From NCBI GenBank assembly GCA_964637365.1, contig CAZWWH010000001.1:132269-196268 (forward strand): a stretch of 64,000 bases of DNA. Reading direction: 5' to 3'. Each line of letters begins with the position of its first letter. The first letter of the stretch is position 1. The notes below the pieces were generated by a model that was given only the letters and a program-made list of their open reading frames with translations, was not told the origin of the DNA and made no database searches. Positions 31-49,099 of this stretch are shown piece after piece. Made by a program: the position numbers and the translations under genes. Source of the stretch: an uncultured Peptococcaceae bacterium. GTDB lineage: Bacteria; Bacillota; Dehalobacteriia; UBA7702.

Positions 31-981
31 GTGCAAAAAATAAAAGTCAAAGAACCTAAAAAAATCATGGGCTATCTTGCCGCCATCGTCTCTTCCATCC
101 TTTTTGGAATGATGGCGATTTTGGTAAAGCTCGCTCTAAAAACCGGGCTTGATCCTTTTGATGTGGTTTTCTTCCGCTTTTTCTTCACTTCCTTTATCAT
201 TGCCATTTATGTACTGGTACGCCGCATCAACTTAAAGCTGCAATGGGCGCAAATTTGGCGGATCATCTTTTTGGCCCTGGTAGGATATGCCGCCATGAAC
301 ATCACCTACTACACGGCCTTTGACCGTATGCCGGTATCCCTCGCCGGTATGATGCACTATATCTATCCCGTGGCCGCGGTAGTCATTGGTCGGGTTATAT
401 TTAAGGATCATATTGGCAAAGAGTGCTATTTTGCCGTGGCACTGGCGGTTGGCGGCGCCATGCTCCTTTCCTTCGGTGATTTTCAGGCCTTGGACGCCAT
501 TGGCATCCTTTGCGCTTTGCTTTCCGGGATTCTTTACGGCCTTTACGCTGTGGGACTGGGGCGCCCCGCTTTGGCGGATTTAGACAGTTGCGCCATTGTC
601 TTTTATCTTTGTGTATTCAGCACATTGTTCTTAGGAGGTTTCGAGGCTATTCGGGGAGTCAATCCTTTTGGGATACTCACAACCAAGGGACTCCTTATTA
701 TGCTGGCCAACGCTTTCTTCTGCACCGGCTTTGCCATGATGATTTTCCGAAAGGCCATTGTGTCTGTAGGAGCCGTTCCTACTACCATTCTTTCCACTTT
801 AGAACCAATTACCGCCGCAGGTTTGAGTCTTATTTGTTTCCATGAAACGTTCAATTTTTTGATGATTATGGGTTCCGCTCTGATCTTAATTGCCGTAATT
901 CTAACGGTAAAACCACCAAAGCAAAAAGATACATCGGCGCCATCCCAGGAGGAGGAACAAACAACCGTTACCCACACATAA
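31..981 (+). CDS. EamA/DMT-family drug/metabolite transporter (10-TM permease)
   Basis: 316-aa highly hydrophobic ORF with two tandem EamA-like halves (GxxxALxxG..FFRF motifs); true start may be the M at 67. Confidence 0.65.
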   Translation: MQKIKVKEPKKIMGYLAAIVSSILFGMMAILVKLALKTGLDPFDVVFFRFFFTSFIIAIYVLVRRINLKLQWAQIWRIIFLALVGYAAMNITYYTAFDRMPVSLAGMMHYIYPVAAVVIGRVIFKDHIGKECYFAVALAVGGAMLLSFGDFQALDAIGILCALLSGILYGLYAVGLGRPALADLDSCAIVFYLCVFSTLFLGGFEAIRGVNPFGILTTKGLLIMLANAFFCTGFAMMIFRKAIVSVGAVPTTILSTLEPITAAGLSLICFHETFNFLMIMGSALILIAVILTVKPPKQKDTSAPSQEEEQTTVTHT

Positions 982-1027: not shown

Positions 1028-3118
1028 TTATTGTACTGTAGGTAATTTGGAGAAATCAGCTTTTTTATCTTTTCCCCAGAATTTGCCCAGCAATGATTTT
1101 TGTTTTTCTTGTACCACACGGTTTTTTGGACGGCCAACCGCAACGATTTCAATATGGCACTCAATGTGGAGGTGGGCGCCGCTCCCCTCTCTTCCCACTT
1201 TGGAATCCTTCCGATCCACCAAAACTTCATAGTCGTTCATTCCCTGAAGCTGCATTTCCACAGTCATTCTCTTTTTGCCCTCTTGAATCGCCAATTCAAT
1301 GGCCGTCTCCATGGGAGTTCGTTCCCCGATTTCGTCCTTATGCTCCGAAGGCTTAAAGTGACTTTTGCCCCAAGGCGCATAAACCTCGATACCGGAAGTA
1401 TCATGATTCTGAACCAAAATACGGTAAATGTTCATGACCTTCCCCGCCGCAGCTCCCACAGCGTTTGCCACTCCGTGATGGGATGGAAATATCGCGTCAG
1501 TATGGAGCTTTTCGCAGGCGGCAGGCAGCCAGAATTCCGTGGGAGCGCCAATGCCGACGACGGGAAGGGACAGAGAAATGTCGGTGGAGACCAAAGGCCC
1601 CTGCTTTTTGCCAAAGGAATTTTCTAAGAAATATTCCATGACCGTTTCTTTGGCAAAGGGATTTAAATCCTTCTTCTCATAAGTCCACATACTATCCAGA
1701 ATGACACGGTACATCTGCTCAGTCATGGCCTGCTTCAGCGTTTCCGTCAGCTCCGACAGCTGAAAATGGTGGGTTTGAGCAACCAAATGAGCAGCCAGAG
1801 TCCCCGCTTCTTGAGAACCGATTTCACATTCTCCCGCAAAATGGAGAAGATCAGTGGGCGTAAAACCTACGGTCCCCAAAATTCCATGATCCACCAAAGG
1901 TTCTATAGATAGAAAATTGGGATTCGTTTCCAAACAGCGGCTGATTTCCACCAGCGTATGGGGGGCTTCCTTCACAATTTCTATGACCTTCCGTTGTTCC
2001 TCGGTGAGCTCTGTATGAGGAGAAGGATGATGCAAGAGCAGATATCCCTCTACAGCCTCATGCCCCAAAAGCCCCACCGGGGAAAGAGAAATCTGTTTCA
2101 ACTCATCCAAATAATGGGGATACTGGCGGCAAATTACTGACACCGGCCAGCTGCGGCGCGGACCGATGCGCCATTCTCTCGTTGTATCGTCATAGCAAAT
2201 ATGACTGTCTCCTCCCAACCCAAAGGTAGTGGCCTCCACAGCAGAAACCCGTGTATGCCAACCGCCGACCTTGGCGCCGTTCTCATCGAGGCGCGGCAGC
2301 CCTTGGCGCAAAATCGCGATATCCGTGGTGGTGCCGCCCATATCAAGAACAATGCCCTCCCGCACGTCGCTTAAAAAAGTAGCTCCGATGATGCTGGCGG
2401 CAGGCCCCGACAGAATCGTTTCAATGGGACGTTCTCTGGCAACAGATTCGTTCATCAAGCTGCCGTCGCCTTTTACTACCATAATGGGAATATCTAATTT
2501 TTTTTCATCCAAAACCGTTCGGACAGCATTAAGAAGCTCATCAATGATATAGAGAAGACGGGCGTTCAACACCGCTGTAACGGTGCGCTCCTGCATACCG
2601 ATGACGGAACTCAACTCATGGGCTGCCACCACGGGGCATTTGAGGATTTTCCGCACCATTTCTTTGACGGTCTTCTCATGGGCGTCATTGCGGATGCTGA
2701 ATATTCCCGAAACAGCCACGGCGTCCACTTTATCCCGGAGGCTTTCAATTTCTTCCTTTATTTCTTCCAAATCAAGTGGTTCCGTTTCCTCCCCGCGGAT
2801 ATTATGTTTCCCGTGGAGAATGCGGTATTCACACTGGGGTAGTTCCGCTTTAGGAGAAAATCCCAGCAAAAGCAAGCCAACACGGCAGCCACGGCTTTCC
2901 ACAATGGCATTGGTGGCTAAGGTAGTGGATAATGCCAAATAATCCACTTGTTCCAACCAAGACTGTGGCAATTGATTAATGGTATTATGAATCCCAATCA
3001 TAAGGTCTTGATGGGTTGTGGACGACTTTGTTGACGCCAAAATTTCTTTTGTATCTAAATTGATGACGACGCCGTCGGTAAAAGTGCCGCCGGTATCAAT
3101 TCCTAAAACAATTGACAT
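1028..3118 (-). CDS. hydantoinase/oxoprolinase-family protein (HyuA-like ASKHA ATPase), 696 aa
   Basis: N-terminus MSIVLGIDTGGTFTDGVVI is the Hydantoinase_A_N signature; length matches HyuA-type proteins; no Cys cluster, so not a RamA-type activator; last gene of the mttB-paralog/BCCT operon. Confidence 0.55.
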   Translation of the reverse strand: MSIVLGIDTGGTFTDGVVINLDTKEILASTKSSTTHQDLMIGIHNTINQLPQSWLEQVDYLALSTTLATNAIVESRGCRVGLLLLGFSPKAELPQCEYRILHGKHNIRGEETEPLDLEEIKEEIESLRDKVDAVAVSGIFSIRNDAHEKTVKEMVRKILKCPVVAAHELSSVIGMQERTVTAVLNARLLYIIDELLNAVRTVLDEKKLDIPIMVVKGDGSLMNESVARERPIETILSGPAASIIGATFLSDVREGIVLDMGGTTTDIAILRQGLPRLDENGAKVGGWHTRVSAVEATTFGLGGDSHICYDDTTREWRIGPRRSWPVSVICRQYPHYLDELKQISLSPVGLLGHEAVEGYLLLHHPSPHTELTEEQRKVIEIVKEAPHTLVEISRCLETNPNFLSIEPLVDHGILGTVGFTPTDLLHFAGECEIGSQEAGTLAAHLVAQTHHFQLSELTETLKQAMTEQMYRVILDSMWTYEKKDLNPFAKETVMEYFLENSFGKKQGPLVSTDISLSLPVVGIGAPTEFWLPAACEKLHTDAIFPSHHGVANAVGAAAGKVMNIYRILVQNHDTSGIEVYAPWGKSHFKPSEHKDEIGERTPMETAIELAIQEGKKRMTVEMQLQGMNDYEVLVDRKDSKVGREGSGAHLHIECHIEIVAVGRPKNRVVQEKQKSLLGKFWGKDKKADFSKLPTVQ

Positions 3119-3150: not shown

Positions 3151-4695
3151 TTATTCCGCAGCATCTTTTTTGGCCTCGTTTGTTCCATTGGAACCATAAA
3201 GTCCCCTGACGGCCGAAAGCGCCAGTGCGATCATTAAGAACAGCAACGGGAACGAAGCCAATACCGCCAACATCTTTGTGCCATCAATGCCGGCAAAGCT
3301 TATCATTACCCAAGCCAACGAGCCCATAATGATGCCCCAAGCAAGCTTTAAAAATAGCGGCGGCTCCCCTTCCTCCTGTTGGAACCCACTGGTACTCATA
3401 ATAGCGGCCACAGAAGTCATGGAATCAGCCATGGTGACAAAAGAAATCACAATAATGACCAAAAATAGAATGACCAGGAAGGTGCCGAGGGGGAATTGAT
3501 CGAAAAAGGTAAAAACAGCACTTTCCAAACCGTTGGCCTCCAAAGCGCTCCAAAGGTCAAAGGTACCTTCCAACTGCATATGGATAGAGGTGCCTCCGAA
3601 TACGGTAAACCAAAGAATACCAAAAATTGCTGGTGCTACCAAATTTACTGCCAAAAACTGCCGTATCGTGCGGCCATAGCAGAGGCGGGTGAGGAATACC
3701 CCCACCACAGGAGCGTAAGCAATCCAGGACGCCCAATAGAAAATGCTCCACCAGCGGGACCAGTCCTCTCCAGTGGCGGCGCCAAGATACGTGGATTTAG
3801 CAAAAAAAGTGGTGATAAACTCACCAGTGCTTTCCGCACCCAGCTTCAAGATATAGGTGGTGGGACCTACAATGAGAATGAACAATAGCACGATGACGTA
3901 AAGCTTCAAATTCTGATCTGACAGCCACTTCAAACCCTTGTCCATCCCCACAGCGCTGGAAGCTGTAAAAAACAAAATAATGCAAAGAGCCACCATAGCC
4001 CAGACAAAGGGCGTGGGATCAATGCCTGTTACAAAATTCAAACCACTGGAAATCTGCATGATTCCCATACCCATGGAGGTAGCGATACCGCCAGCCAAGG
4101 AGAACAAGCAAACAGCATCGACCACAGTGCCGATTTTACCATGGCAACGGTCTCCCATAAGAAAATAGAGTCCGGAGCTGATGGTCATTTTCTGATGATA
4201 ATTGTAAACGGCCAAAGCAATAGGAATCGTGGCCGTAACATACAGGGCATAAGGAGTAAAAGACCAATGATGAAAAACAGTGGACATTGAAAACATAATA
4301 GCTTCAGCACTTTCCGGGGTAATGCCGTGAGCAGGAGCTTCTAAATGCTGGATAGGTTCGGCAACGCCCCAAAAGACAATGCCAATGGCAATACCGCCAC
4401 ACAGACTCATGGCAAACCATTGGATAAAAGTATATTTCGGTTTTGCCTCCTCCCCGCCAAATTTGATGCGTCCTGCGGGGCTGCAAAAAATCACAATACA
4501 AAGGAGCACAAACCCCAAAGCAACCAAAGCAAAAAGCCAATCAAATCCATCGGTAATCCATTGATAAGCCCCATTCATTGCTGCGGAAAACCCATCACCG
4601 CTGATAAAGCTGAAAATCACAGAACCCAATAACACCAAAAACGGCGGCCAGAAAACGGCATGATTGATTCTGTGTCCTTTGATAGAATTTTTCAT
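3151..4695 (-). CDS. BCCT-family (betaine/carnitine/choline) transporter
   Basis: 514 aa, 12 TM; N-terminal region and Trp-rich segments (WTVFYWASWIAYAP-like: WSIFYWASWIAYAPVVGVFLTR) typical of BetT/OpuD/CaiT transporters. Confidence 0.8.
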   Translation of the reverse strand: MKNSIKGHRINHAVFWPPFLVLLGSVIFSFISGDGFSAAMNGAYQWITDGFDWLFALVALGFVLLCIVIFCSPAGRIKFGGEEAKPKYTFIQWFAMSLCGGIAIGIVFWGVAEPIQHLEAPAHGITPESAEAIMFSMSTVFHHWSFTPYALYVTATIPIALAVYNYHQKMTISSGLYFLMGDRCHGKIGTVVDAVCLFSLAGGIATSMGMGIMQISSGLNFVTGIDPTPFVWAMVALCIILFFTASSAVGMDKGLKWLSDQNLKLYVIVLLFILIVGPTTYILKLGAESTGEFITTFFAKSTYLGAATGEDWSRWWSIFYWASWIAYAPVVGVFLTRLCYGRTIRQFLAVNLVAPAIFGILWFTVFGGTSIHMQLEGTFDLWSALEANGLESAVFTFFDQFPLGTFLVILFLVIIVISFVTMADSMTSVAAIMSTSGFQQEEGEPPLFLKLAWGIIMGSLAWVMISFAGIDGTKMLAVLASFPLLFLMIALALSAVRGLYGSNGTNEAKKDAAE

Positions 4696-4753
4696 ATTCT
4701 AAAACCTTCTTTCATGTTTCATTTCCAAAGAGCTTTTCGCGGAAAATGAGCTT

Positions 4754-4782
4754 GGAATGGGAAGCGCAACACTTCCCATTCC
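4754..4782 (-). other. intercistronic perfect hairpin (11-bp stem, 7-nt loop) between the methyltransferase paralog and the BCCT gene
   Basis: GGAATGGGAAG cgcaaca CTTCCCATTCC; no U-tract, so more likely an attenuator or processing/stability element than a full terminator. Confidence 0.5.
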
Positions 4783-4797
4783 AATATTAGAGATTGA

Positions 4798-6261
4798 TTA
4801 TTCGCCGATTCTTTTCTGGGCTTTTTCAAGAACTTCGTCTAATTTGGCGATTACATCGGCAGGAAGCTCAGGAACCTCATGTTCGGCCAAAAGTTTTTTG
4901 GTTCTTTCATGCATTCTGGTACGGAAGTCGGTGGGGTTTTCTTTCCATACATCATATCTCTGTCTGTCCATGAGGTTGGGGAACCAGAGTTCACTTTTGA
5001 AGTTTTCAAAAGTGTGCATATGAGTGATGTATTCACCGCCAGGACCAATTTCTTTGATTACATCAAGAGCAAGTTTTTCGGGAGTGATTTCCACGCCACG
5101 GCGGATGCGGCGGGCATAACCGATGGCTTCGTCAGCCATGGTGATGAGGTCGAGGTGGGAGGCGGCGGCGGATTCCATGAATCCCACGTCATGAACGAGG
5201 TTGCCACCGGAGAGGCAGTTTACGAGAGAGGTAAATGCGCATTCCAAAGCGCACTGCTCGTCAACAACTTTGGAGTCGGAGGCGCAGGCCGTTTCCCAGC
5301 AGGGAAGGTCGAGATAATGATAGATATCAGCGACTAAGCTTTCACCGAGGCAGTGTTCGGGAGTACCGTAAGCAGCCTGAGTGGTGTTCATATCGACGGT
5401 CAAGGTTACGCAGGTGGCAACATAGCCGTTACCAGGACGTACAGACTGGCTCAGTACGAGACCGGCGAGGTTTTCCGCAATACCGAGGGTGATGGAGCCG
5501 GCGATGGTCATGGGCGATACGCAGCCGAGCTGTACACCGGAGGGCCAGAGAACGGTCATGCCGCGTTCCGCACAATATACGTGCTTGCGGGCAGCGTCCG
5601 CAGGAACAGTAAGGGGAGTCACAGGATCGCCAGCATAGCAGATGGCGAAGGGTTTTTCAAGGAAAGCTTCCCAGCTGCCTCTTACGGCTGCCATCATTTC
5701 GAACTGTTCTTCCAGACCTTCTACATCAACGCCCCAACAAACGATGGGCTTGGTGGTGTTCTGAAGCATTTCGTGCATTTCGCAGGTATCGGCGATGAGA
5801 GGGTTCCAGTCACGGATACCGGCCAGGGACATGATAAAGTCGATATTGGGAAGAGCGTCGGAAAGTTTTGCGCTGTTGGCAACGTCGCTCTTTCTTGCTT
5901 CACGTCTTTCATAGGTTTCAAAGTCATAGTAGAAGGGATTTGTGGGACCATTGCCAAAGTAGGTGTTGTTGCCGCCTACATCCATGGCATGTTCACCGAA
6001 ACGGTTGTAAACCTGAATATGAGAGGGAGCGGTGCTGATCGCTTTTTTAACGAGTTCTCTGTCGACAAAAACTCGGTTGCCTTCGACGCGGCAGCCATAT
6101 TTTTCCATATAATCACGGGCGCCGGGATCCATGATGTCGGTACCAACTTCTTCAAGAATTTCGAATGCACCGTTAAGAATCAATTCGATCTGTTCTTCGG
6201 TTGCCACATGATAACGCATTACGTTTTCTTTGTAATGGGAGGTGATGCCTTCAATTGCCAT
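4798..6261 (-). CDS. MttB-superfamily methyltransferase without pyrrolysine (quaternary-amine:corrinoid methyltransferase, MtgB/MtcB/MtpB-like)
   Basis: 487-aa uninterrupted ORF homologous along its whole length to the Pyl-containing mttB at 62622-64000; the residue aligned with Pyl is Cys (…ETAC-ASDSKVVDEQ…); operon with BCCT transporter. Confidence 0.85.
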   Translation of the reverse strand: MAIEGITSHYKENVMRYHVATEEQIELILNGAFEILEEVGTDIMDPGARDYMEKYGCRVEGNRVFVDRELVKKAISTAPSHIQVYNRFGEHAMDVGGNNTYFGNGPTNPFYYDFETYERREARKSDVANSAKLSDALPNIDFIMSLAGIRDWNPLIADTCEMHEMLQNTTKPIVCWGVDVEGLEEQFEMMAAVRGSWEAFLEKPFAICYAGDPVTPLTVPADAARKHVYCAERGMTVLWPSGVQLGCVSPMTIAGSITLGIAENLAGLVLSQSVRPGNGYVATCVTLTVDMNTTQAAYGTPEHCLGESLVADIYHYLDLPCWETACASDSKVVDEQCALECAFTSLVNCLSGGNLVHDVGFMESAAASHLDLITMADEAIGYARRIRRGVEITPEKLALDVIKEIGPGGEYITHMHTFENFKSELWFPNLMDRQRYDVWKENPTDFRTRMHERTKKLLAEHEVPELPADVIAKLDEVLEKAQKRIGE

Positions 6262-6339
6262 AGTTTTAAACTCCTTTCAAAATAAACATCATTTGGTTTT
6301 TGGATTGTTTGTTTTTTTGTCGTGAACGTCTTACTATAA

Positions 6340-6355
6340 TGCAAGGAGCGTGCCA
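6340..6355 (-). promoter_or_regulatory. sigma-54 (-24/-12) promoter driving the mttB-paralog/BCCT/hydantoinase operon
   Basis: minus strand reads TGGCAC-GCTCC-TTGCA, an exact match to TGGCAC-N5-TTGCW, about 80 nt upstream of the start at 6261; divergent from the sigma-54 activator gene. Confidence 0.8.
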
Positions 6356-6479
6356 AAATAAATAAAAAAACAAAAAAATTTTTCTTTACAAAAAATCTAC
6401 TTTATATATACGAATGCCAATAGAACTTAAAAATTTTTATCACAAGGGGTTGAATTACATAATTTTCATGTTATAATCT

Positions 6480-6550
6480 ATTATGCAAATATTTTTGCGG
6501 CAAAATTATTTGCTATTGCCAGGAAAAATGCAAATATATTTGCTATTTTA
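6480..6550. promoter_or_regulatory. candidate enhancer (UAS) palindromes for the adjacent sigma-54 activator
   Basis: TTTTTGCgGCAAAAT perfect palindrome plus repeated TTTGCTATT/GCAAATAT half-sites about 150-200 bp upstream of the -24/-12 element. Confidence 0.4.
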
Positions 6551-6594
6551 AAACAATGTAAATTTTTTGCTTACGAAATTTGGGAGCGGAAACT

Positions 6595-8082
6595 ATGGAA
6601 TTAAAAATCACCAAAAAAATTTTGTTTGAGATCATTGAACACCTCAAAGAAGCCGTCTATATCGTAGACGCCCAAGGGAAGGTTGTCTATTTAAACGATG
6701 CAGCTTCCGAGCTGGAACAGATGCCGAAAAAGGATTTTCTGGGGAAAACCATTGCCGATGTTTACTTTAACACAGAATTTCATTCTCACAAAAACTCCCC
6801 TTGTCTCGACGTCTTAGCCAGCGGTGAAGTACAGGAAAACGAAAACCTGGAATGGTACACCGCCGACGGTACCACCATTAATGCCATCACCAATACCTTT
6901 CCCATCATGGAAAACGGTGAGATATTAGGGGTATTTTCCATGGCGGAAAATATCGCGGACCTGAAAAAGCGCCTCATTGAAATAGGAGCCTTTCCCCGAA
7001 AGCAAACCTACCGCATGAAAAAGAAAACCCTCCATAACGGCACCTCTTACATTTTTGATGACATCATCGGCGAAAGTGACGCCCTGCAAAGCACCATCAC
7101 CATTGCCCGGCGGTTTGCCGCCAAAAAGCTGCCGGTCATGATATACGGTGAAACAGGAACCGGGAAAGAGATGTTCGCCCAAAGCATTCACAACGCCAGC
7201 TCCTCGGTGGCAGGCCACTTCATCCCCGTGAACTGCGCCGCCATCCCAGAGAATCTGCTGGAAAGTATCCTCTTCGGCACTGTCAAAGGAGCCTTTACCG
7301 GGGCCATTGACAGTGTGGGGCTTTTAGAGAAAGCGGAAAACGGCTCTGTTTTCTTAGATGAAATCAACTCCATGCCCATTGGCCTGCAAGCAAAAATCCT
7401 TCGAGCGTTACAGGAAAAGGAGGTACAGCGCATTGGCGACAGCAAAACGAGAAAGATCAACTGCCGAATTATCAGCGCCACCAACAAGCTGCCTGCGGAA
7501 GCCATTCGTGACGGAGAAATGCGGGAGGACTTATTCTACCGGTTATCAACTGGGATGATTCTCATCCCACCACTGCGGGAGCGGGGCAATGATTTTGAAC
7601 TCCTGGCAGACTATTTCATCGCAAAGTGTAACGAGGAAATTGACGCCACCGTGACGGCTATGTCGCCGGAGCTGAAAAATCTTTTAAAGACATACTATTT
7701 CCCCGGTAATATCAGAGAGCTTGCCAATATCATTGAAAGTGCCATGAATATGACCATTGAAGGAGAAAATATCCTGGACCTGCGGCATCTTCCCACCTAT
7801 CTGAAAAACCATTTCAAAGAGGAAATTTCCGCCATGCCCAATGCGGAGCAGGTCTTTCAAAGGCATAGTCCCCAAAGCCACAAAAATGTCCCTCAAATGG
7901 ACTTCCATGGCAATCTCAATACCATGATGGCAGAATACGAGAAGGGCCTGATTGAACTCGCTTTGGCCAGCACTCAAGGAAATCTCACCAAATGCGGGGA
8001 AAAGCTGGGGATCACCCGTCAGAATCTCACCTTTAAGATGAAACGGCACAATATTGATTTAAAAAAATTCAAACGCAGATAG
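6595..8082 (+). CDS. sigma-54-dependent transcriptional activator (PAS sensor - AAA+ - HTH)
   Basis: GETGTGKEMFAQSIHNAS Walker A, GAFTGA motif (GAFTGAIDSVG), ESILFG, C-terminal Fis-type HTH, N-terminal PAS-like domain; ATG at 6595 has a GGAG RBS (the ORF track starts at an upstream TTG, 6580). Confidence 0.85.
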   Translation: MELKITKKILFEIIEHLKEAVYIVDAQGKVVYLNDAASELEQMPKKDFLGKTIADVYFNTEFHSHKNSPCLDVLASGEVQENENLEWYTADGTTINAITNTFPIMENGEILGVFSMAENIADLKKRLIEIGAFPRKQTYRMKKKTLHNGTSYIFDDIIGESDALQSTITIARRFAAKKLPVMIYGETGTGKEMFAQSIHNASSSVAGHFIPVNCAAIPENLLESILFGTVKGAFTGAIDSVGLLEKAENGSVFLDEINSMPIGLQAKILRALQEKEVQRIGDSKTRKINCRIISATNKLPAEAIRDGEMREDLFYRLSTGMILIPPLRERGNDFELLADYFIAKCNEEIDATVTAMSPELKNLLKTYYFPGNIRELANIIESAMNMTIEGENILDLRHLPTYLKNHFKEEISAMPNAEQVFQRHSPQSHKNVPQMDFHGNLNTMMAEYEKGLIELALASTQGNLTKCGEKLGITRQNLTFKMKRHNIDLKKFKRR

Positions 8083-8151
8083 ATAAAAGCCTGTTAAGAA
8101 AAACTTAGAGGAGGCCAAGGCCTCCCCTTTTTCCATGCGGCACATCTGAAA

Positions 8152-9612
8152 TTATTTTACGCGGTCTTCTGCCCGGGCCAAAATCGCATCAAGGCGGGCC
8201 ACTACTTCCTCGGGCAAAGCAGGTACCTGGTGCTCAGCCAAAAGGCGTTTTGTTTTTTCGTGAACGCGAGTACGCATATCCGTAGGATTGTTGATCCAAG
8301 ATTGGTAGCGGCTGCGATCCATCAAAGTAGGCTGCCACAGCTCCTTCTTAAAGTTCATGAAAGTATGCTCGTTGGTGAGGAATTCACCGCCGGGGCCGAC
8401 GGCTTTGATAACGTCATAAGCCAAGGTATCATCAGAAATTTCGATACCTCTAGTGATGCGACGGGCATAGCCGATGATTTCATCACACATGACGATCTGA
8501 TCCAAGGAGGCGGACATAGCGCCATCAATAAAGCCCACGTCATGAACGAGATGGCCACCGCTCAAGGCGTTGGACAAGATTTGCATGGACGATTCAATGG
8601 CAGCTTGTTCATCCACTACCTTAGCTTCGGTGACACCGCCGGTTTGGAACATCGGTAAATTGAGATAATGGAAAATATCAGCAATGGCGCTTTCCCCCAG
8701 GCAATGCTCAGGGCTGCCATAGGCCGACTGGGTGGTAGCCATATCCACAGCTAGAATCACAACACCCCCCACAAATACGCTGCCTCTTTTTAACAGCTGG
8801 GACAAAACAAGGCCAATGAAAACCTCAGCCAACCCCATGGCTAAGCCTGCGGCAATGGTTACAGGAGAAGTCGAGCCCAGTTGGGGGCCGGTGGGCCAAA
8901 TGATAGGCAAACCGGCTTCAATGCCACACTCTAATTTATCAAAATTACTGGTATCAATGACTAAAGGCGTTACAGGGCAGCCGGGGAAAATGGCAACAAA
9001 GGGCTTTTCACGCAATTTATCCATACCGCCGGCGACTTCAGCACACATTTCAATTTCATCTTGGAAGCTTTCCACTGTGGTACCCCAAGCCACAAAGGGT
9101 TTTGTGGTATTTTCCAAAATTTCGCGTACTTCTACAACGTCAGCAACATCGGGGTGGCAATCGGAAATTCCAGCGAGGCCCATAATAAAGTCGATGTTGG
9201 GGCAGGCATCGGAAATCCGGGCGTTATTGGCCACGTCTTTACGGAGACCTTCGCGGCGTTCCCCGGTTTCAAAATCGTTGTACATGGGATTAGTGGGGCC
9301 ATTGCCGTAGTAGTTGTTAATACCGCCGGCACGAATGACTTCATTGCCCATGCGGTCGTAAAGCACCATTTCCGAAGGAGCCGAAGCAATGCATTCCTTT
9401 ACAAGGCTGGCAGGGACTTTGACGATGTTATCCTCCGCCGCACAGCCAGCTTTAACCAAAAGCTCAATGGCTCTGGGATTTTTAATCATCATCCCGGTAT
9501 CCTCCATGATATGGAGAGCGGCTTCAATAATTTTTTCACATTCGGCTTCGGTCAAAGCCTGATAGCGAGATTTGTTAACGTGGTAGTAAGATTGAATACC
9601 TTTGATCGACAT
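8152..9612 (-). CDS. MttB-superfamily methyltransferase without pyrrolysine (second paralog)
   Basis: 486 aa, about 50% identical to 4798-6261; the Pyl-equivalent position is Val (…MFQTGGV-TEAKVVDEQ…). Confidence 0.85.
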   Translation of the reverse strand: MSIKGIQSYYHVNKSRYQALTEAECEKIIEAALHIMEDTGMMIKNPRAIELLVKAGCAAEDNIVKVPASLVKECIASAPSEMVLYDRMGNEVIRAGGINNYYGNGPTNPMYNDFETGERREGLRKDVANNARISDACPNIDFIMGLAGISDCHPDVADVVEVREILENTTKPFVAWGTTVESFQDEIEMCAEVAGGMDKLREKPFVAIFPGCPVTPLVIDTSNFDKLECGIEAGLPIIWPTGPQLGSTSPVTIAAGLAMGLAEVFIGLVLSQLLKRGSVFVGGVVILAVDMATTQSAYGSPEHCLGESAIADIFHYLNLPMFQTGGVTEAKVVDEQAAIESSMQILSNALSGGHLVHDVGFIDGAMSASLDQIVMCDEIIGYARRITRGIEISDDTLAYDVIKAVGPGGEFLTNEHTFMNFKKELWQPTLMDRSRYQSWINNPTDMRTRVHEKTKRLLAEHQVPALPEEVVARLDAILARAEDRVK

Positions 9613-9676
9613 ATTTCATTCTCCTTTTTTGTTTTGTCGCAAACAAGTCGTGTCGTGTTTTTCACAAGTATGTAAA

Positions 9677-9692
9677 CGCAAAACCCGTGCCA
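9677..9692 (-). promoter_or_regulatory. sigma-54 (-24/-12) promoter of the second mttB paralog
   Basis: minus strand TGGCAC-GGGTT-TTGCG, about 65 nt upstream of the start at 9612. Confidence 0.75.
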
Positions 9693-9759
9693 AAACCCAT
9701 ATTTTTTCCACGATTCTTTTTCGCTACATATAGATATGGAATAAAGGAGTCAATAACTG

Positions 9760-9910
9760 ATTCTATAGGCGTCATGTAAATATTTATTGCCGCAATAAAT
9801 ATTTCATCTATAAAAAATCGCAATAAAAATTGCTACTTCGGCACAAACTATTTTTGACAATTTTCATTGCCTATTCAGGAAAAACGACATTTTTATTGCG
9901 CAATATTTCT
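9760..9910. promoter_or_regulatory. candidate activator-binding palindromes
   Basis: TTTATTGCcGCAATAAA (perfect 8+8 palindrome), AATCGCAATAAAAATTGCTA and ATTGCGCAAT; same TTGC-N-GCAA theme as at 6480-6550. Confidence 0.45.
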
Positions 9911-9987
9911 TGCGGTATGCTTTTTGCATATATCATATTAACAAAGAGGCACAAAGCATAAACCAAACCGAGAAAGGAGGAAACTCA

Positions 9988-11466
9988 TTGAGAAAAGTAA
10001 TGAATGAATCGCTGCTGCTGGATATCATTGAGCATTTTCATGCCGCAGTCTACATTGTGGATAAAGACGGAAATATGGAATACCTAAACAGTGCAGCCAA
10101 ACGCATGGACCGCCTTACCGATAATGTCATTGGCAAAAACTTATCGGAAATTTATTACAATACAGTTTTCCAGGAAGGCATGAACTCCCCCTGCTTAGAC
10201 ACCCTCAAAACAGGAAATGCCCACATTTACGAAAATTTAGAGTGGTATCTCAAAGACGGTACTACGGTCAACGCCATTACCAGCACTTATCCCATTATCA
10301 AGGAGGGAGAAATCCAGGGTGTATTTGCCCTGTCCGAAGATGTCAATCAATTAAAAAAGTTCCTGATAAAAAATGGTGCTTTCAAACAGAAATTGTCCTA
10401 CCGTTTCCGCAATAAGACCATGAAAAACGGTACTCAATATGTGTTCAACGATATCATTGGGGAAAGCGAATTGATGAAAAATACCATTATGATGGCTCGG
10501 CGGTTTGCCGCCAAAAAGCTGCCGGTAATGATATACGGCGAAACCGGTACCGGTAAAGAAATGTTCGCACAGAGCATCCATAATGCCAGCCCCTATGTGG
10601 CCGGGCCTTTTATTCCCATCAACTGCGCGGCCATTCCCGAAAACCTGCTGGAAAGTATGCTTTTCGGCACTGTCAAAGGAGCCTTTACCGGCGCCCTGGA
10701 CCATGCTGGACTTTTTGAAAAGGCCGAGGGCGGTTCCGTGTTTCTCGACGAAATCAACTCCATGCCCATGTTGCTCCAAGCAAAGATCCTCAGGGTTCTC
10801 CAAGAAAAGGAAGTGCAGCGCATTGGCGATAGTAAAACACGAAAAATCAACTGCCGCATCATTAGCGCTACCAATCAATTACCCACTGAAGCCATCCGCT
10901 CTAACAGCCTGCGTGAGGATTTATTTTACCGTTTATCCACCGGCATGGTCTGGATTCCTTCCTTGAAAGAACGCAGCGAAGATATCTCCCTTTTGGTAGA
11001 TTATTTTATGGAAAAGGCCAATGCGGAATTGGATACCACCATCCTCTCCATTTCACCAGAGCTGGACCATTTGTTCCATGCCTATGACTGGCCGGGTAAT
11101 ATCAGGGAACTGTCCAATGCCATAGAAAGCGCCATGAACATGACGCTGGATGGGGAAACCGTACTGGACCTGCGACATCTACCCACTTACTTAAAGCGGC
11201 ACTTTAGCACGGAATTGATGGGAATGCCCAATGCAGAGGAGGTCTTCTCCGTACGAAACGAGTCCATGGACAACCCTGCGCCCATGCTCCACCTTCATGG
11301 CAATATCAATGAAATGGTAGACGCTTACGAAAAAGAGCTGATTCAATTCGCTTTACGCGCTACTAGGGGCAACCTTTCCAAGGCTGGGGAAAAACTGGGA
11401 ATCTCTCGCCAAAGCCTTTCTGTAAAACTGAAAAAGCATTGCATTGATGCAAAAACTTTTAAATAA
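9988..11466 (+). CDS. sigma-54-dependent transcriptional activator (PAS - AAA+ - HTH), paralog of 6595-8082
   Basis: the same motif set (GETGTGKEMFAQSIHNAS, GAFTGA) and about 65% identity to the first activator; likely TTG start at 9988 (GGAGG 7 nt upstream) or ATG at 10000. Confidence 0.85.
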   Translation: MRKVMNESLLLDIIEHFHAAVYIVDKDGNMEYLNSAAKRMDRLTDNVIGKNLSEIYYNTVFQEGMNSPCLDTLKTGNAHIYENLEWYLKDGTTVNAITSTYPIIKEGEIQGVFALSEDVNQLKKFLIKNGAFKQKLSYRFRNKTMKNGTQYVFNDIIGESELMKNTIMMARRFAAKKLPVMIYGETGTGKEMFAQSIHNASPYVAGPFIPINCAAIPENLLESMLFGTVKGAFTGALDHAGLFEKAEGGSVFLDEINSMPMLLQAKILRVLQEKEVQRIGDSKTRKINCRIISATNQLPTEAIRSNSLREDLFYRLSTGMVWIPSLKERSEDISLLVDYFMEKANAELDTTILSISPELDHLFHAYDWPGNIRELSNAIESAMNMTLDGETVLDLRHLPTYLKRHFSTELMGMPNAEEVFSVRNESMDNPAPMLHLHGNINEMVDAYEKELIQFALRATRGNLSKAGEKLGISRQSLSVKLKKHCIDAKTFK

Positions 11467-11545
11467 TAAAGAATCAACGGCTATAGGCCCCAAATCATCA
11501 GTATTCGATCCTCTCATTCAAATATTTTTATCACATGATAGTTTT

Positions 11546-11561
11546 TGGCATAAAATTTGCA
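11546..11561 (+). promoter_or_regulatory. sigma-54 (-24/-12) promoter upstream of the MFS transporter gene
   Basis: TGGCAT-AAAAT-TTGCA (GG-N10-GC spacing preserved) about 190 nt upstream of the ATG at 11754. Confidence 0.6.
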
Positions 11562-11753
11562 ATATTATATTGACAAATGTCGTGAACAATAAAAAAATCG
11601 TCTGTCGTGAACCATGCAATTATTCCAAATTCGTTTTATCATCTTTTCAAAACGACTCAGAAAACGGGAATCAATGAAACATTTTCATACAACTGAATAA
11701 TGAATTTTCATCTTAATTTGGACTTCTTAATAAAGAATTAGGAGGCATATTTT

Positions 11754-13013
11754 ATGAGTAAAAAAGGATTAAACCGCTGGTTTGTTTTATTCATCTTATC
11801 TCTGGCCTGCGGGCTGATTTATCAACTGCCCTACCTTCGTTATAGCTATTATGATTCCATGATCGTTGCCTTTAACGTCACCAATACCCAGTTGGGGACT
11901 TTCATGACTGCCTTTGGTCTTGGTTCTCTCGTATGCTATCTCATCGGCGGCGTACTGGCCATGAAGTTTTCCGATAAAGCCTTGCTTCCCTTAGGACAAA
12001 TTCTCACAGGGGCTGCGGGACTCTGGTTTGCAACCTTTCCTTCTTACGGCATCTGCCTGTTCATCAGTTTCTTCTGGGCCTTTTCCACTTCTCTGATTTT
12101 CTGGCCCGCAGTTATCAATTTTGTCCGCGGCATGGGCGACTCCAAAGAACAAGGACGTCTATATGGTCTTTTTGAAGGGCTCCGCGGCATCACCGCCACC
12201 ATCATTGGTCTCGGCATTGTAGCGCTTTTCAACGGCGCCTTAAGTGAAACCGCGGGACTCCGCACCGTAATCCTGGCCTATGCCATCATCAATATCGTTC
12301 TTGGGATTATCACCTTCTTTGTAGTACCCAACAACAAAGAGGAAAAGAAAGCACTCAGTGCTGCCAGTGGCGAACAACTATCTCTTGGAGCGGGGTTTAT
12401 GAAAGCCCTGAAGCTCCCCATTACCTGGATTGCTTCGGGCATCGTGTTCTGCACCATGATGGTATTTGACTGTCTCGGTTATACCACGCCTTATCTCACC
12501 GGCGTGATGGGCGCCACCGTTGTATTTGCCGCCACCTTCGGCACCATCCGCACCTGGGGGCTTCAAATTGTCGGCGGTACCTGCGGCGGTATCATTGCCG
12601 ATAAAATCGGTTCCTCTGCCAAAACCCTGATCGGCGCTTTCGTCGTCATCGGCATAGGATTTGCCGCTTTGGCCTTGCTTCCTGCCGGCTCCTTCTGGGT
12701 TGCCACTATTTTGATCCTGGTGTTTGGTATCGCGATTTACGTCAACCGCGGCGTTTACTTCGCGGTTCTGGACGAAGCCAAAGTCCCTGCCAGCATCAAC
12801 GCTGCTGTGGTCGGCATCGTATCCGCCATTGGCTTTACCCCTGATGCTTTCATTTACACTGTCATCGGCTATTGGCTTGACAAATATCCCGGCGCCACCG
12901 GATATCAAATCACCTTTTGGTGCGGCACCATCTGCGCTGCAGTCGGGGTAATTCTCTCCATTATCGCAGTAAAAGTAATTAAAAACAACAAATCCAAAGT
13001 TACATCCGAGTAA
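11754..13013 (+). CDS. MFS transporter
   Basis: 419 aa, 12 predicted TM segments, two MFS-like halves; GGAGG RBS. Confidence 0.75.
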   Translation: MSKKGLNRWFVLFILSLACGLIYQLPYLRYSYYDSMIVAFNVTNTQLGTFMTAFGLGSLVCYLIGGVLAMKFSDKALLPLGQILTGAAGLWFATFPSYGICLFISFFWAFSTSLIFWPAVINFVRGMGDSKEQGRLYGLFEGLRGITATIIGLGIVALFNGALSETAGLRTVILAYAIINIVLGIITFFVVPNNKEEKKALSAASGEQLSLGAGFMKALKLPITWIASGIVFCTMMVFDCLGYTTPYLTGVMGATVVFAATFGTIRTWGLQIVGGTCGGIIADKIGSSAKTLIGAFVVIGIGFAALALLPAGSFWVATILILVFGIAIYVNRGVYFAVLDEAKVPASINAAVVGIVSAIGFTPDAFIYTVIGYWLDKYPGATGYQITFWCGTICAAVGVILSIIAVKVIKNNKSKVTSE

Positions 13014-14815: not shown

Positions 14816-15515
14816 TATGACGCTTTTGCTCCCCCCCTTCTGAGGCGAAAGAGCCCATTTTATTTTAGGACAACATCATCTTTTTGCCGCCCGCAGGAGA
14901 ATTTGTTCATTCCAAGTGATAGATTCACTTGCGGGTGGCTCTCTTTTATGCCTGTTCAAAACGGTTCATGGAAAAAATAAAGTGCGGCGGAACATTATGT
15001 CCGCCGCAAAAGCAATCGATATAAAAATTAAAATATAAGGAGAATTTAGAATCCATATCATAAGTGCACAAATCGCACGAATTTAAGAAAGAAGGGGCAA
15101 ATGCGTAACTTAGGCGAGATAGGCGATTGCCCAACAAAGAAAAAAATAAGGAGTTTGTGTTAAGATTGGCAACTAAATAAAAAAGCCTTGCTTCCGAAGA
15201 ACCAAGGCGATTTTGAGAAATTAAAAATCGCAAACTTCTTACGCGGAAGTTTCCAAATCATCAATGAGGTTTCAGTATCCTGACTTACCTTCAACGTCTT
15301 CCTGCGCCTTCCCGGTTTCCCAGTGGCAAAATGCAGTAGACTCAGAGCTTACAGTGGCGCGACCGTCCGGGATTTAAACCCGATTCCTTCATACCTCAAT
15401 GTAATGTGCTATTCACTTTTGTTGAAGTAATCATAACACATCGAATTGGAAAAATCAAGTACTTTTTTTAAAATCTTGGCATTCCGGTGATTCCAATTTG
15501 TTATCACCAAAACCC

Positions 15516-49082: not shown

Positions 49083-49099
49083 CTCAAATCCTCCTGTTT

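What the first reader, a model, noticed from the sequence alone, without database searches (positions are those of the whole stretch)
3151..11561. Tandem duplicated 'PAS-sigma54 activator + non-Pyl MttB paralog' modules with perfect -24/-12 promoters
Two divergently arranged units repeat the same design within 8 kb. Each pairs an AAA+ enhancer-binding protein that has an N-terminal PAS sensor (6595-8082; 9988-11466; about 65% identical) with a non-pyrrolysine MttB-family methyltransferase (4798-6261; 8152-9612; about 50% identical). Each methyltransferase is preceded by an exact TGGCAC-N5-TTGC promoter (6340-6355; 9677-9692). This implies that each methyltransferase, probably specific for a different quaternary amine given the BCCT transporter in module 1, is switched on by its own dedicated small-molecule-sensing sigma-54 regulator. 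Substrate-specific regulation of MtgB/MtcB/MtpB-type enzymes is essentially unexplored.
Basis: partly seen in the sequence, partly recalled or inferred. Interest (0 to 1): 0.7.

Follow-up and report, generated by a model that had tools for sequence, protein, structure and literature searches.

The report
Sigma-54 switches for two methylamine methyltransferases
An uncultured gut Clostridia bacterium carries two side-by-side gene sets, each pairing a methyl-removing enzyme of unknown substrate with its own sensor-activator and sigma-54 promoter; this is a real, well-conserved example of a control scheme first reported for related enzymes in 2025.

Summary
Two non-pyrrolysine MttB-family genes (53% identical) each lie divergent from a PAS–AAA+–HTH sigma-54 activator (63% identical). 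The only two exact TGGCAC-N5-TTGC sites in 64 kb sit upstream of them, correctly oriented.

I add four things:
- **Operators:** each activator has its own upstream inverted repeats, GCAAA-N4-TTTGC for module 1 and GCAAT-N4-ATTGC for module 2. This difference is largely kept in four related genomes.
- **Third promoter:** a sigma-54-type promoter at 11546 drives an MFS transporter, so module 2 also has a transporter.
- **Operon 1:** it is mttB1–BCCT–hydantoinase-A-like ATPase.
- **Shared box:** an unexplained box, TGTTCACGAC, follows all three promoters and is conserved in relatives whose MttBs are only 36–42% identical.

The MttB | activator (–MFS) unit recurs in other Clostridia genomes. One relative carries rpoN inside the unit.

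The enzymes are not MtgB orthologues: about 30% identity, and 1 of 4 glycine-betaine-binding residues kept. Their substrates are unknown. I could not check for rpoN in this genome.

The novelty claim is weakened. SigL promoters and sigma-54 regulators in a betaine/MttB cluster were mapped in Sporomusa sphaeroides in 2025, and MttB was predicted as sigma-54-regulated in Clostridia the same year. Verdict: a real new member of a known kind, with moderate interest.

The parts
1028..3118 (-). Hydantoinase-A-like ASKHA ATPase (696 aa), last gene of operon 1
   Evidence: Pfam Hydant_A_N + Hydantoinase_A cover residues 5-321 only. Best solved relatives are 5-oxoprolinase, acetophenone carboxylase and N-methylhydantoinase. 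The gene follows BCCT after a 32-nt gap with an AGGAGG ribosome-binding site, and a terminator-like hairpin follows it. It is kept next to MttB1-BCCT in L002-L004. A paralogue sits in a third MttB module just left of the window.
3151..4695 (-). BCCT-family transporter of module 1
   Evidence: Pfam BCCT, E 2e-139. The closest NCBIfam model is glycine betaine BCCT, at 397 bits against a 650-bit cut-off.
4752..4784 (-). 15-bp stem-loop between mttB1 and BCCT (possible partial terminator or mRNA stabiliser)
   Evidence: Terminator-like scan hit with 15 pairs and tail GCTCATTTTC; sequence read. Its function is inferred.
4798..6261 (-). MttB1, a non-pyrrolysine MttB-superfamily methyltransferase (substrate unassigned, 'MtxB')
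   Evidence: Pfam MTTB 281.6 bits. TIGR02369 scores 323 bits against a 525-bit cut-off. About 30% identical to MtgB, with only H348 of the 4 glycine-betaine-binding residues kept; the Pyl position is Ala.
6319..6327 (-). Conserved box GTTCACGAC at about +3 to +11 of the mttB1 promoter
   Evidence: The exact 9-mer occurs 4 times in the window, and 3 of these lie just downstream of the sigma-54-type promoters. Spacing is fixed at 13-14 nt after the TTGC in 11 MttB-type promoters from 8 loci.
6340..6355 (-). Sigma-54 promoter of operon 1 (TGGCACGCTCCTTGCA)
   Evidence: Exact consensus match. The position is conserved in L002-L005 with variable spacers.
6450..6477 (+). Sigma-70-like promoter for EBP1 (TTGAAT-16-TATAAT, TG-extended)
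   Evidence: Consensus scan, 10 of 12 with an extended -10 TG. The UAS repeats lie just downstream of it, which suggests autorepression (inference).
6485..6543 (.). UAS of module 1: three GCAAA-N4-TTTGC palindromes (6485-6498, 6500-6513, 6530-6543)
   Evidence: GCAAW-N4-WTTGC has 4 matches in the window, all in the two EBP-MttB intergenic regions; 0.95 expected. The sites lie 143-188 bp upstream of the -24 element, and the same type and spacing occur in L002-L005.
6595..8082 (+). EBP1, a PAS-AAA+-HTH sigma-54 activator
   Evidence: Pfam PAS, Sigma54_activat, AAA_lid_14 and HTH_8. GETGTGKE at 185, GAFTGA at 232, LDEI at 254. The closest NCBIfam model is PrdR, at 365 bits against a 795-bit cut-off.
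8107..8128 (.). Bidirectional terminator-like hairpin between the convergent EBP1 and mttB2 genes
   Evidence: Terminator-like scan hits on both strands.
8152..9612 (-). MttB2, a non-pyrrolysine MttB-superfamily methyltransferase (substrate unassigned)
   Evidence: Pfam MTTB 281.7 bits. 53% identical to MttB1. Pocket positions differ from MttB1: Phe versus Trp at the MtgB-R312 position, Val versus Ala at the Pyl position.
9647..9665 (-). Degenerate or split version of the box (gtgaaaaacacgacacgac) downstream of the mttB2 promoter
   Evidence: Read. L002 also has a split version at its module-2 promoter. L004 and L005 have the intact box there, and L003 has a one-mismatch version, GTTCACGGT.
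9677..9692 (-). Sigma-54 promoter of mttB2 (TGGCACGGGTTTTGCG)
   Evidence: Exact consensus match; conserved in L002-L005.
9792..9913 (.). UAS of module 2: GCAAT-N4-ATTGC-type repeats. 9820-9833 and 9900-9913 keep both 4-nt arms (9900-9913 has C rather than A at position 10); 9792-9805 and 9857-9870 have one arm mismatch
   Evidence: The T/A type is kept in the module-2 regions of L002, L003 and L005, and is degenerate in L004.
9988..11466 (+). EBP2, a PAS-AAA+-HTH sigma-54 activator
   Evidence: Pfam domains and motifs. 63% identical to EBP1 overall: PAS 49%, AAA+ 75%, HTH 60%.
11546..11561 (+). Third sigma-54-type promoter (TGGCATAAAATTTGCA), upstream of the MFS gene
   Evidence: Relaxed scan. 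Equivalent promoters lie upstream of the MFS orthologues in L002-L005, L011, L012, L093, L134 and L136.
11579..11612 (+). Two direct copies of the box in reverse orientation (GTCGTGAAC at 11579-11587 and 11604-11612) in the MFS leader
   Evidence: The same reversed orientation, often in two copies, is seen in MFS leaders of L002-L005, L011, L012 and L134.
11754..13013 (+). MFS transporter, the likely transporter of module 2
   Evidence: Pfam MFS_1. An MFS gene with its own sigma-54-type promoter follows the activator in L011, L012, L134 and L136. In L004 one MFS promoter has module-2-like upstream repeats.

Best explanation
Two paralogous one-component sigma-54 circuits control two catabolic methyltransferase modules.

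Components:
- Module 1: EBP1 and the operon mttB1-BCCT-hyuA-like.
- Module 2: EBP2, a monocistronic mttB2, and a separately promoted MFS transporter gene.

Proposed mechanism:
1. Each activator is made at a low level from a sigma-70-type promoter. For EBP1 the activator's binding sites overlap the leader of its own gene, so it probably represses itself (inferred).
2. Each activator binds its own inverted repeats about 110-220 bp upstream of the -24 element. EBP1 uses GCAAA-N4-TTTGC and EBP2 uses GCAAT-N4-ATTGC (sites shown; binding inferred).
3. Without ligand, the N-terminal PAS domain holds the AAA+ ATPase off. With ligand, the hexamer contacts sigma-54 through its GAFTGA loops and opens the closed complex at TGGCAC-N5-TTGC. 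The ligand is most likely the imported methylated amine or a close derivative. This step follows established knowledge of PAS, GAF and V4R enhancer-binding proteins such as RocR, XylR, DmpR and NorR; it is inferred here.
4. The induced MttB-family enzyme demethylates its substrate onto a corrinoid protein. No corrinoid protein is encoded in this window.
5. A conserved box, TGTTCACGAC, at about +3 to +11 of the mttB promoters and reversed in the MFS leader, most likely adds a second control shared by all these promoters. Its factor is unknown.
For: - Anatomy and motifs.
- Promoters: only two exact consensus sites in 64 kb, both correctly placed, plus a third for the MFS gene.
- Comparative footprint: in L002-L005 (four gut MAGs; one is titled 'Ca. 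Cryptoclostridium obscurum', two Peptococcaceae) the GG and GC elements and their position are kept while the spacers differ.
- Operators: all four window matches to GCAAW-N4-WTTGC lie in the two intergenic regions. The A/T versus T/A type is largely kept per module across the window and four relatives. The exceptions are one T/A-type site in the L005 module-1 region, one A/A site in L002 module 1, and C/G or G/A first sites in L002 and window module 2. The recognition helices differ consistently: RQ[N/A/T]LT versus RQSL[S/W/T].
- Association: all 10 other loci examined that encode a homologue at least 40% identical (L008, L010-L013, L093, L134-L136, besides L002-L005) place it next to an MttB-family or corrinoid-protein gene.
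- L136 has a sigma-54 gene inside the unit.
- Experimental precedent: dRNA-seq-mapped SigL promoters and sigma-54 regulators in a betaine-induced mtgABC/mttBC cluster of Sporomusa sphaeroides (PMC12456013).
Against: - rpoN was not found for this genome. It is not in the window, and the search seeded with the L136 RpoN was inconclusive.
- There are no transcription or binding data for this organism.
- The PAS ligand is unknown, so the sensor could read a product, redox state or cofactor status rather than the substrate.
- One module-1 region (L005) contains a module-2-type repeat, so some cross-talk is possible.
- The MFS promoter has no recognisable operator within 300 bp.
- No corrinoid protein or methyl-corrinoid:THF methyltransferase is encoded nearby, unlike the characterised mtg, mtc, mtp and mth clusters.
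- Sigma-70-like hexamers also occur in the AT-rich intergenic regions.
Confidence: 0.75

Rival explanations
1. The circuits are sigma-54-dependent, but the PAS domains do not sense the methyltransferase substrates. They would read a general signal such as redox or energy state, cobalamin or folate status, or the demethylated product. The two modules would then be co-regulated rather than substrate-specific.
For: - PAS domains of Clostridial enhancer-binding proteins are widely proposed to sense redox or energy state (PMC6615313).
- All three promoters share the same downstream box, which points to a common input.
- The PAS domains keep conserved blocks, such as NSPCLD and ENLEWY, across paralogues.
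Against: - PAS is the most diverged structured domain between the paralogues: 49% identity against 75% for AAA+.
- Each unit has its own operator type and its own transporter.
- Genomes carry several such units at separate sites. That fits per-substrate sensors better than repeated copies of one global sensor.
Confidence: 0.2
2. The two activators are redundant or cross-acting: either one can drive both mttB promoters and the MFS promoter, so the modules form one regulon and not two insulated switches.
For: - The operators differ by essentially one base pair per half-site.
- The L005 module-1 region has one module-2-type site.
- The MFS promoter lies next to EBP1 in L003-L005 but next to EBP2 in the window and L002.
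- The HTH regions are 60% identical.
Against: - The A/T versus T/A difference is kept per module in most sites across the window and four relatives.
- The recognition-helix differences are also kept per module.
- In L004 one MFS promoter carries module-2-like repeats although it lies beside EBP1. This suggests specificity is set by operator type, not by proximity.
Confidence: 0.15
3. The -24/-12 matches are not the working promoters. The mttB genes would be transcribed from sigma-70-type promoters, with the neighbouring activators controlling something else.
For: Sigma-70-like hexamer pairs occur in the AT-rich intergenic regions. rpoN was not located for this genome.
Against: - Both exact consensus sites are in the right place and orientation, against 0.16 expected.
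- They are conserved in more than ten homologous units while the flanking bases vary.
- The activators keep intact GAFTGA loops.
- SigL-dependent starts were mapped experimentally in an analogous cluster (PMC12456013).
Confidence: 0.04

Closest known systems
SigL (sigma-54)-controlled betaine metabolism cluster of Sporomusa sphaeroides KIAC (PMC12456013, 2025)
   Same: TGGCA-N6-TTGC promoters and sigma-54-interacting regulators are interspersed with MttB-family or betaine methyltransferase and transporter genes. The substrate induces the cluster.
   Different: - That organism is a Negativicute with a 58-kb cluster that also holds corrinoid proteins and grd reductase genes.
- Here the host is an uncultured gut Clostridia (MAG titles: Bacillota/Firmicutes bacterium; related MAGs titled Peptococcaceae).
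- The units are compact: MttB | activator, plus a transporter.
- No corrinoid protein gene is nearby, and there are no expression data.
- Neither the operator types nor the TGTTCACGAC box is mentioned in the passages of that paper I read.
PAS-AAA+-HTH one-component activators of Firmicutes: RocR (Bacillus subtilis), PrdR (Clostridioides difficile), AdhR (Clostridium beijerinckii)
   Same: Same domain order, and a SigL-dependent catabolic target next to the regulator gene. PrdR is the best NCBIfam match. JGI labels some homologues 'arginine utilization regulatory protein'.
   Different: Scores are far below the PrdR cut-off (365-370 bits against 795), and PrdR has about 130 extra N-terminal residues. 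The targets here are MttB-family methyltransferases and transporters, not amino-acid catabolism.
MtgB, glycine betaine:corrinoid methyltransferase of Desulfitobacterium hafniense (PDB 2QNE, 9YCE; PMC13080624)
   Same: It is the closest solved structure, a non-pyrrolysine MttB-superfamily TIM barrel. His348 is conserved.
   Different: Identity is about 30%. Y97 becomes Pro, R312 becomes Trp or Phe, and F356 becomes Ala. mtgB lies next to its corrinoid protein and MtgA, which is not the case here.
Glycine-betaine-induced cluster of 'Ca. Formimonas warabiya' DCMF (PMC9768040)
   Same: MttB-family methyltransferases, BCCT transporters and an N-methylhydantoinase A-like protein are encoded together and induced on glycine betaine. 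Elsewhere in the same genome, a 43%-identical PAS activator sits next to BCCT and MttB genes with sigma-54-like promoters.
   Different: That cluster also holds corrinoid proteins and a second methyltransferase. The TGTTCACGAC box is absent from the Formimonas locus.
Eubacterium limosum and E. maltosivorans mttB-family loci (MtcB, MtpB, MtyB, MthB)
   Same: These are gut bacteria with many non-pyrrolysine MttB paralogues, each induced by its own quaternary amine and linked to BCCT, MFS or EamA transporters.
   Different: Those loci are reported to be associated with GntR-family regulators (PMC9303578), not sigma-54 activators.

Membership tests
[quoted passage not shown] | AAA+ sigma-54 interaction domain with Walker A, Walker B and the GAFTGA loop | tested here: met
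   PF00158, E 1.6e-61 and 2e-63. GETGTGKE, GAFTGA, LDEI and RIISATN are present in both proteins.
[quoted passage not shown] | C-terminal Fis-type HTH and N-terminal sensory domain | tested here: met
   HTH_8 and PAS/PAS_9/PAS_4 hits in both proteins.
[quoted passage not shown] | Cognate -24/-12 promoter with upstream inverted-repeat activator sites | tested here: met
   Promoters and repeats are conserved in L002-L005.
[quoted passage not shown] | Sigma-54 (rpoN/sigL) present in the same genome | tested here: inconclusive
   rpoN is not in the window. A search with the RpoN of L136 returned no hit on contigs known to carry these units. A related unit (L136) encodes sigma-54 itself.
[quoted passage not shown] | ATP-dependent, ligand-controlled activation of sigma-54 holoenzyme | not testable with these tools
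   This needs biochemistry or genetics.
PrdR (NCBIfam NF041552 equivalog) | Score above the curated cut-off of 795 bits | tested here: not met
   364.7 and 370.5 bits, matching only profile positions 131/135 to 575/576 of 577.
MttB superfamily, non-pyrrolysine members ('MtxB') | Full-length PF06253 match with no in-frame UAG at the pyrrolysine position | tested here: met
   The Pyl column is Ala in MttB1 and Val in MttB2, whereas the Pyl-type genes (window right end, L013) have TAG there.
MttB proper (TIGR02369, trimethylamine:corrinoid methyltransferase) | Score above the 525-bit cut-off, and pyrrolysine present | tested here: not met
   323.5 and 358.9 bits; no pyrrolysine codon.
MtgB (glycine betaine methyltransferase) | Glycine-betaine-binding residues Y97, R312, H348 and F356 (PMC13080624) | tested here: not met
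   Only H348 is kept. The others are Pro, Trp or Phe, and Ala. Identity is about 30%.
Corrinoid-dependent methyltransferase systems (MT1 + corrinoid protein + MT2) | Cognate corrinoid protein and methyl-corrinoid:THF methyltransferase encoded alongside | tested here: not met
   No B12-binding or MT2 domain was found in the non-overlapping ORFs of at least 150 aa scanned across the window. The 27.8-29.9 kb stretch was not scanned. These partners are presumably encoded elsewhere.
Corrinoid-dependent methyltransferase systems (MT1 + corrinoid protein + MT2) | Methyl transfer from a quaternary amine to Co(I) | not testable with these tools
   This needs an enzyme assay.

The most novel reading that the evidence does not exclude
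The TGTTCACGAC box at the start of every transcript in these units is the operator (or RNA target) of an unidentified regulator shared by all paralogous MttB units of this gut clade. That would put a global layer, for example cobalamin/folate status or carbon hierarchy, on top of a set of mutually insulated, substrate-specific PAS activators. The units would then be modular sensor-enzyme-transporter cassettes. Their PAS domains would be ready-made biosensors for working out the substrates of the orphan 'MtxB' enzymes that lower trimethylamine production in the human gut.
Probability: 0.3. Interest if true: 0.6.

Novelty: new member of a known kind. Interest (0 to 1): 0.4.

Why it matters
Non-pyrrolysine MttB enzymes of gut anaerobes remove methyl groups from dietary quaternary amines without releasing trimethylamine, the precursor of the pro-atherogenic TMAO. 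A gut-genome survey catalogued non-pyrrolysine family members it could not assign to a substrate and labelled them 'MtxB' (PMC10653893).

If each enzyme is wired to a dedicated ligand-sensing activator with its own operator, the activators give a practical route to substrate discovery. A reporter fused to the sigma-54 promoter, or binding assays on the isolated PAS domains, could be screened against candidate amines.

The paired operator and recognition-helix differences are also a compact natural example of how duplicated regulators become insulated from each other.

The general idea is no longer new. Sigma-54 control of betaine and MttB genes was shown in Sporomusa in 2025.

Tried and rejected
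- **Metagenome scan for 'sigma-54 promoter + box'** (TTGGCA-N6-TTGC-N13-19-GTYSWSRAC). The two true box variants were not enriched (6 and 5 of 120). Only L093 was a genuine unit.
- **rpoN in this genome.** I searched with the sigma-54 protein of L136 and looked for hits whose longest contig matched contigs known to carry these units (237,424; 301,939; 362,282; 252,672; 222,902; 2,649,597 bp). There were none, so the test is inconclusive.
- **Exact look-up of the EamA protein**, meant to reach the third module left of the window, was not on record. I could not see whether that module has its own activator.
- **Box as an RNA hairpin loop.** Only 2 of 9 first copies in MFS leaders have a significant flanking stem, and no mttB leader does. 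Rejected as a general explanation.
- **Known RNA families in the leaders.** Rfam gave none at E ≤ 1.
- **Box as a general feature of this lineage's sigma-54 promoters.** Rejected: it is reversed at MFS promoters and absent from the sigma-54-like site at 21489 and from L008, L010, L013, L135 and L136.
- **MtgB orthology.** Rejected on the substrate-binding residues.
- **Own operator for the MFS promoter.** None was found within 300 bp, except module-2-like repeats in L004.

Full report
**1. What is in the sequence**

The region holds, from left to right on the + strand:

| Coordinates | Strand | Feature |
|---|---|---|
| 1028-3118 | − | hydantoinase-A-like ATPase |
| 3151-4695 | − | BCCT transporter |
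| 4798-6261 | − | MttB1 |
| 6595-8082 | + | activator EBP1 |
| 8152-9612 | − | MttB2 |
| 9988-11466 | + | activator EBP2 |
| 11754-13013 | + | MFS transporter |

- The two MttB proteins are 53% identical without gaps. The two activators are 63% identical.
- Both activators have PAS, Sigma54_activat, AAA_lid_14 and HTH_8 domains, with intact GETGTGKE, GAFTGA and LDEI motifs.
- TGGCAC-N5-TTGC occurs exactly twice in the 64-kb window, at 6341-6355(−) and 9678-9692(−). Chance expectation is 0.16. Both sites lie 64-78 nt upstream of the mttB start codons.

**2. Source organism and conservation**

Exact copies of these proteins occur on MAG contigs labelled only Bacillota or Firmicutes bacterium; the longest contig is 237,424 bp.
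- L002: 'Candidatus Cryptoclostridium obscurum'.
- L003 and L005: Peptococcaceae MAGs.
- L004: an 'uncultured Firmicutes bacterium' MAG whose isolate name contains 'Hadza'.

All four keep EBP1 | MttB1-BCCT-HyuA and EBP2 | MttB2, plus the MFS gene. In all of them the GG and GC promoter elements sit at the same place upstream of the mttB genes, while the five spacer bases differ. That is the footprint expected of working sigma-54 promoters.

**3.

(a) *Operators.* GCAAW-N4-WTTGC has four matches in the window, all in the two activator-mttB intergenic regions, against 0.95 expected.
- Module 1 has three GCAAA-N4-TTTGC palindromes at 6485-6543, which is 143-188 bp upstream of the -24 element.
- Module 2 has GCAAT-N4-ATTGC-type repeats at 9792-9913.
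- Across the window and L002-L005, most module-1 sites are A/T type and most module-2 sites are T/A type. The exceptions are one T/A-type site in the L005 module-1 region, one A/A site in L002 module 1, C/G or G/A first sites in L002 and window module 2, and degenerate repeats in L004 module 2.
- The predicted recognition helices differ in step: (T/S)RQ[N/A/T]LT in module 1 and SRQSL[S/W/T] in module 2.

This is the best evidence that each activator serves its own promoter.

(b) *Third promoter.* A sigma-54-type promoter, TGGCATAAAATTTGCA, lies at 11546-11561(+) upstream of the MFS gene.
- MFS orthologues in L002-L005, L011, L012, L093, L134 and L136 have one too. It often follows directly after the terminator of the activator gene.
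- In L004 one MFS promoter has module-2-like upstream repeats.
- Module 2 therefore also has a transporter: MFS for module 2, BCCT for module 1.

(c) *Operon 1.* It reads mttB1, a 15-bp stem-loop at 4752-4784, BCCT, the hyuA-like gene, then a terminator.

(d) *EBP1's own promoter.* A sigma-70-like promoter for EBP1 at 6450-6477 lies just upstream of the three operators. This suggests autorepression, which is an inference.

**4. An unexplained conserved box**

- Starting 13-14 nt after the TTGC of the mttB promoters, at about +3, lies (T)GTTCACGAC(A). Downstream of the MFS promoters the same box appears reversed, GTCGTGAAC(AA), 15-18 nt after the TTGC and often in two direct copies.
- In the window the exact 9-mer occurs four times, and three of these are at the promoters. 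By my arithmetic the expectation for an exact 9-mer is about 0.5.
- The box is kept, in intact or one-mismatch form, in L011, L012, L093 and L134, whose MttBs are only 36-42% identical to the window's.
- It is degenerate or split at the window and L002 mttB2 promoters.
- It is absent from the Formimonas, Desulfitobacterium-MAG and Dehalobacterium loci, from L135 and L136, and from the sigma-54-like site at 21489.
- It works in either orientation, so it is not part of the promoter itself.
- No Rfam family matches the leaders. A hairpin-loop model holds for only 2 of 9 first copies in MFS leaders.

My best guess is an operator for a regulator shared by all units. This is not shown.

**5. How widespread the unit is**

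All 10 other loci I examined that encode a homologue of EBP1 at least 40% identical, beyond the four orthologous loci, place it next to MttB-family or corrinoid genes:

| Locus | Source | Arrangement |
|---|---|---|
| L008 | 'Ca. Formimonas warabiya' | activator-BCCT-MttB |
| L010 | D. hafniense MAG | activator next to a B12-binding protein |
| L011, L012 | one 2.65-Mb genome | two separate MttB \| activator-MFS units |
| L013 | Dehalobacterium | activator → sigma-54 promoter → mttB-MFS-mttB, both mttB genes with in-frame TAG |
| L093 | metagenome contig | two tandem activators with MttB, MFS and BCCT genes |
| L134 | metagenome contig | MttB \| activator-MFS |
| L135 | NCBI assembly GCA_031549025.1 | two mirror-image units |
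| L136 | metagenome contig | MttB \| activator-MFS-rpoN-BCCT |

In L136 a full sigma-54 gene (Sigma54_AID, CBD and DBD domains) sits inside the unit. The window's pair is thus two members of a dispersed family of units, not a recent local duplication.

**6. The enzymes**

Both are non-pyrrolysine MttB-superfamily proteins.
- The closest solved structure is MtgB of D. hafniense, at about 30% identity.
- Of the four residues shown to bind glycine betaine (Y97, R312, H348, F356; PMC13080624), only His348 is kept. The others are Pro, Trp (MttB1 group) or Phe/Ile (MttB2 group), and Ala.
- The pyrrolysine position is Ala in the MttB1 group and Val in the MttB2 group.

So they are not MtgB orthologues. 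Their pockets differ from each other consistently, and the substrates cannot be named. No corrinoid protein or second methyltransferase was found in the ORFs scanned across the window.

**7. Mechanism and confidence**

The most likely mechanism is the standard one for one-component sigma-54 activators:
1. The activator binds its upstream repeats.
2. The PAS domain inhibits the AAA+ ATPase until ligand binds.
3. The GAFTGA loops then remodel the sigma-54 closed complex.

Shown here: the parts, their placement, their conservation and the operator difference. Inferred: binding, ligand identity, autorepression and the role of the box. My confidence in the overall scheme is 0.75. The rivals are a general-signal PAS sensor (0.2), cross-acting activators (0.15) and sigma-70 promoters (0.04).

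**8. What is already known**

- PMC12456013 (mSystems 2025) mapped transcription starts in Sporomusa sphaeroides. It reports multiple SigL promoters (TGGCA-N6-TTGC) and sigma-54-interacting regulators in a 58-kb cluster. That cluster contains betaine transporters, mtgABC and mttBC, and is activated on betaine.
- PMC12316311 (PLoS One 2025) lists COG5598 (MttB) as predicted sigma-54-regulated in Clostridia.
- The 2019 Clostridiales sigma-54 regulon reconstruction does not mention these genes in its main text.
- Eubacterium mttB loci are reported with GntR-family regulators.
- The MttB-hydantoinase-BCCT grouping, and its induction on glycine betaine, was seen in 'Ca. Formimonas warabiya'.

The statement that such regulation is essentially unexplored is therefore out of date. 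What appears new here is the per-module operator code, the MFS promoter, the recurrent compact unit and the conserved box.

**9. Verdict**

This is a real and well-conserved feature. It is a new member of a known kind, with one unexplained element (the box) and a practical use: the activators could serve as biosensors for orphan gut 'MtxB' enzymes. Interest 0.4.

Noticed in passing
window 62622-64000 (-), TAG at 63114-63116; PYLIS at 63017-63116: A genuine pyrrolysine-type mttB gene runs off the right end of the window. It has an in-frame TAG in the motif FVAGG*ADSK and an Rfam PYLIS_3 (pyrrolysine insertion sequence, mttB) hit of 88.5 bits against a gathering score of 38. This organism therefore probably decodes UAG as pyrrolysine, and it carries Pyl-type and non-Pyl MttB paralogues within 55 kb of each other.
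   Followed up: partly
left of window start; L001 5382-11565 and L006 1-4387: A third MttB module lies just outside the window: MttB (35% identical to MttB1), a hydantoinase-A-like protein (41%), BCCT (32%) and EamA (window 31-981). It is convergent with operon 1. I could not see whether it has its own activator.
   Followed up: partly
window 1028-3118 (-): The hydantoinase-A-like ASKHA ATPase has no HyuB partner and about 375 C-terminal residues without any Pfam match. It is repeatedly linked to MttB and BCCT genes here, in the third module and in the Formimonas betaine cluster. By analogy with the choline kinase MthK (PMC12155760), it could activate the substrate with ATP before demethylation, or it could act on the corrinoid. 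Neither idea was tested.
   Followed up: partly
window 19396-21374 (-), sigma-54-like site at 21489 (-): A third sigma-54 activator gene is split into two overlapping ORFs (20019-21374 and 19396-20028) inside its AAA+ domain. This is either a frameshifted pseudogene or an assembly error. Its roughly 350 N-terminal residues have no Pfam match. A TGGCATATTCTTTGCG site lies just upstream.
   Followed up: no
window 15275-15387 (-): A cobalamin riboswitch aptamer (74.3 bits, E 6.5e-17) sits upstream of a 95-aa ORF (14946-15233) with no Pfam match. It may be relevant because the MttB systems depend on cobalamin.
   Followed up: no
L136 8906-10312 (+): In one related unit a full sigma-54 gene lies between the MFS and BCCT genes, downstream of the unit's sigma-54-type promoter. 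This would place rpoN under its own control. This RpoN has few close relatives, with only 8 proteins at 41% identity or more.
   Followed up: partly
L013 11695-16387: In Dehalobacterium formicoaceticum a 41%-identical PAS activator is followed by a sigma-54-type promoter and two mttB genes with in-frame TAG, which the gene caller missed, flanking an MFS gene. The activator family therefore also accompanies true trimethylamine methyltransferases.
   Followed up: partly
window 4798-6261 versus L003, L004 and L005: MttB1 is 85-93% identical to its orthologues in L003-L005. The flanking genes are only 57-79% identical: EBP1 58-60%, BCCT 68-71%, HyuA 57-59%, MttB2 66-71%, EBP2 68-72%, MFS 75-79%. 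The PAS domain of EBP1 is only 42-43% identical to those of L004 and L005. MttB1 is either under unusually strong constraint or was recently exchanged between lineages.
   Followed up: no
window 49142-49364 (-): A T-box leader (96.7 bits) lies upstream of the serine acetyltransferase-like gene and cysteinyl-tRNA synthetase gene (48435-49220 and 47006-48445). This is ordinary.
   Followed up: no
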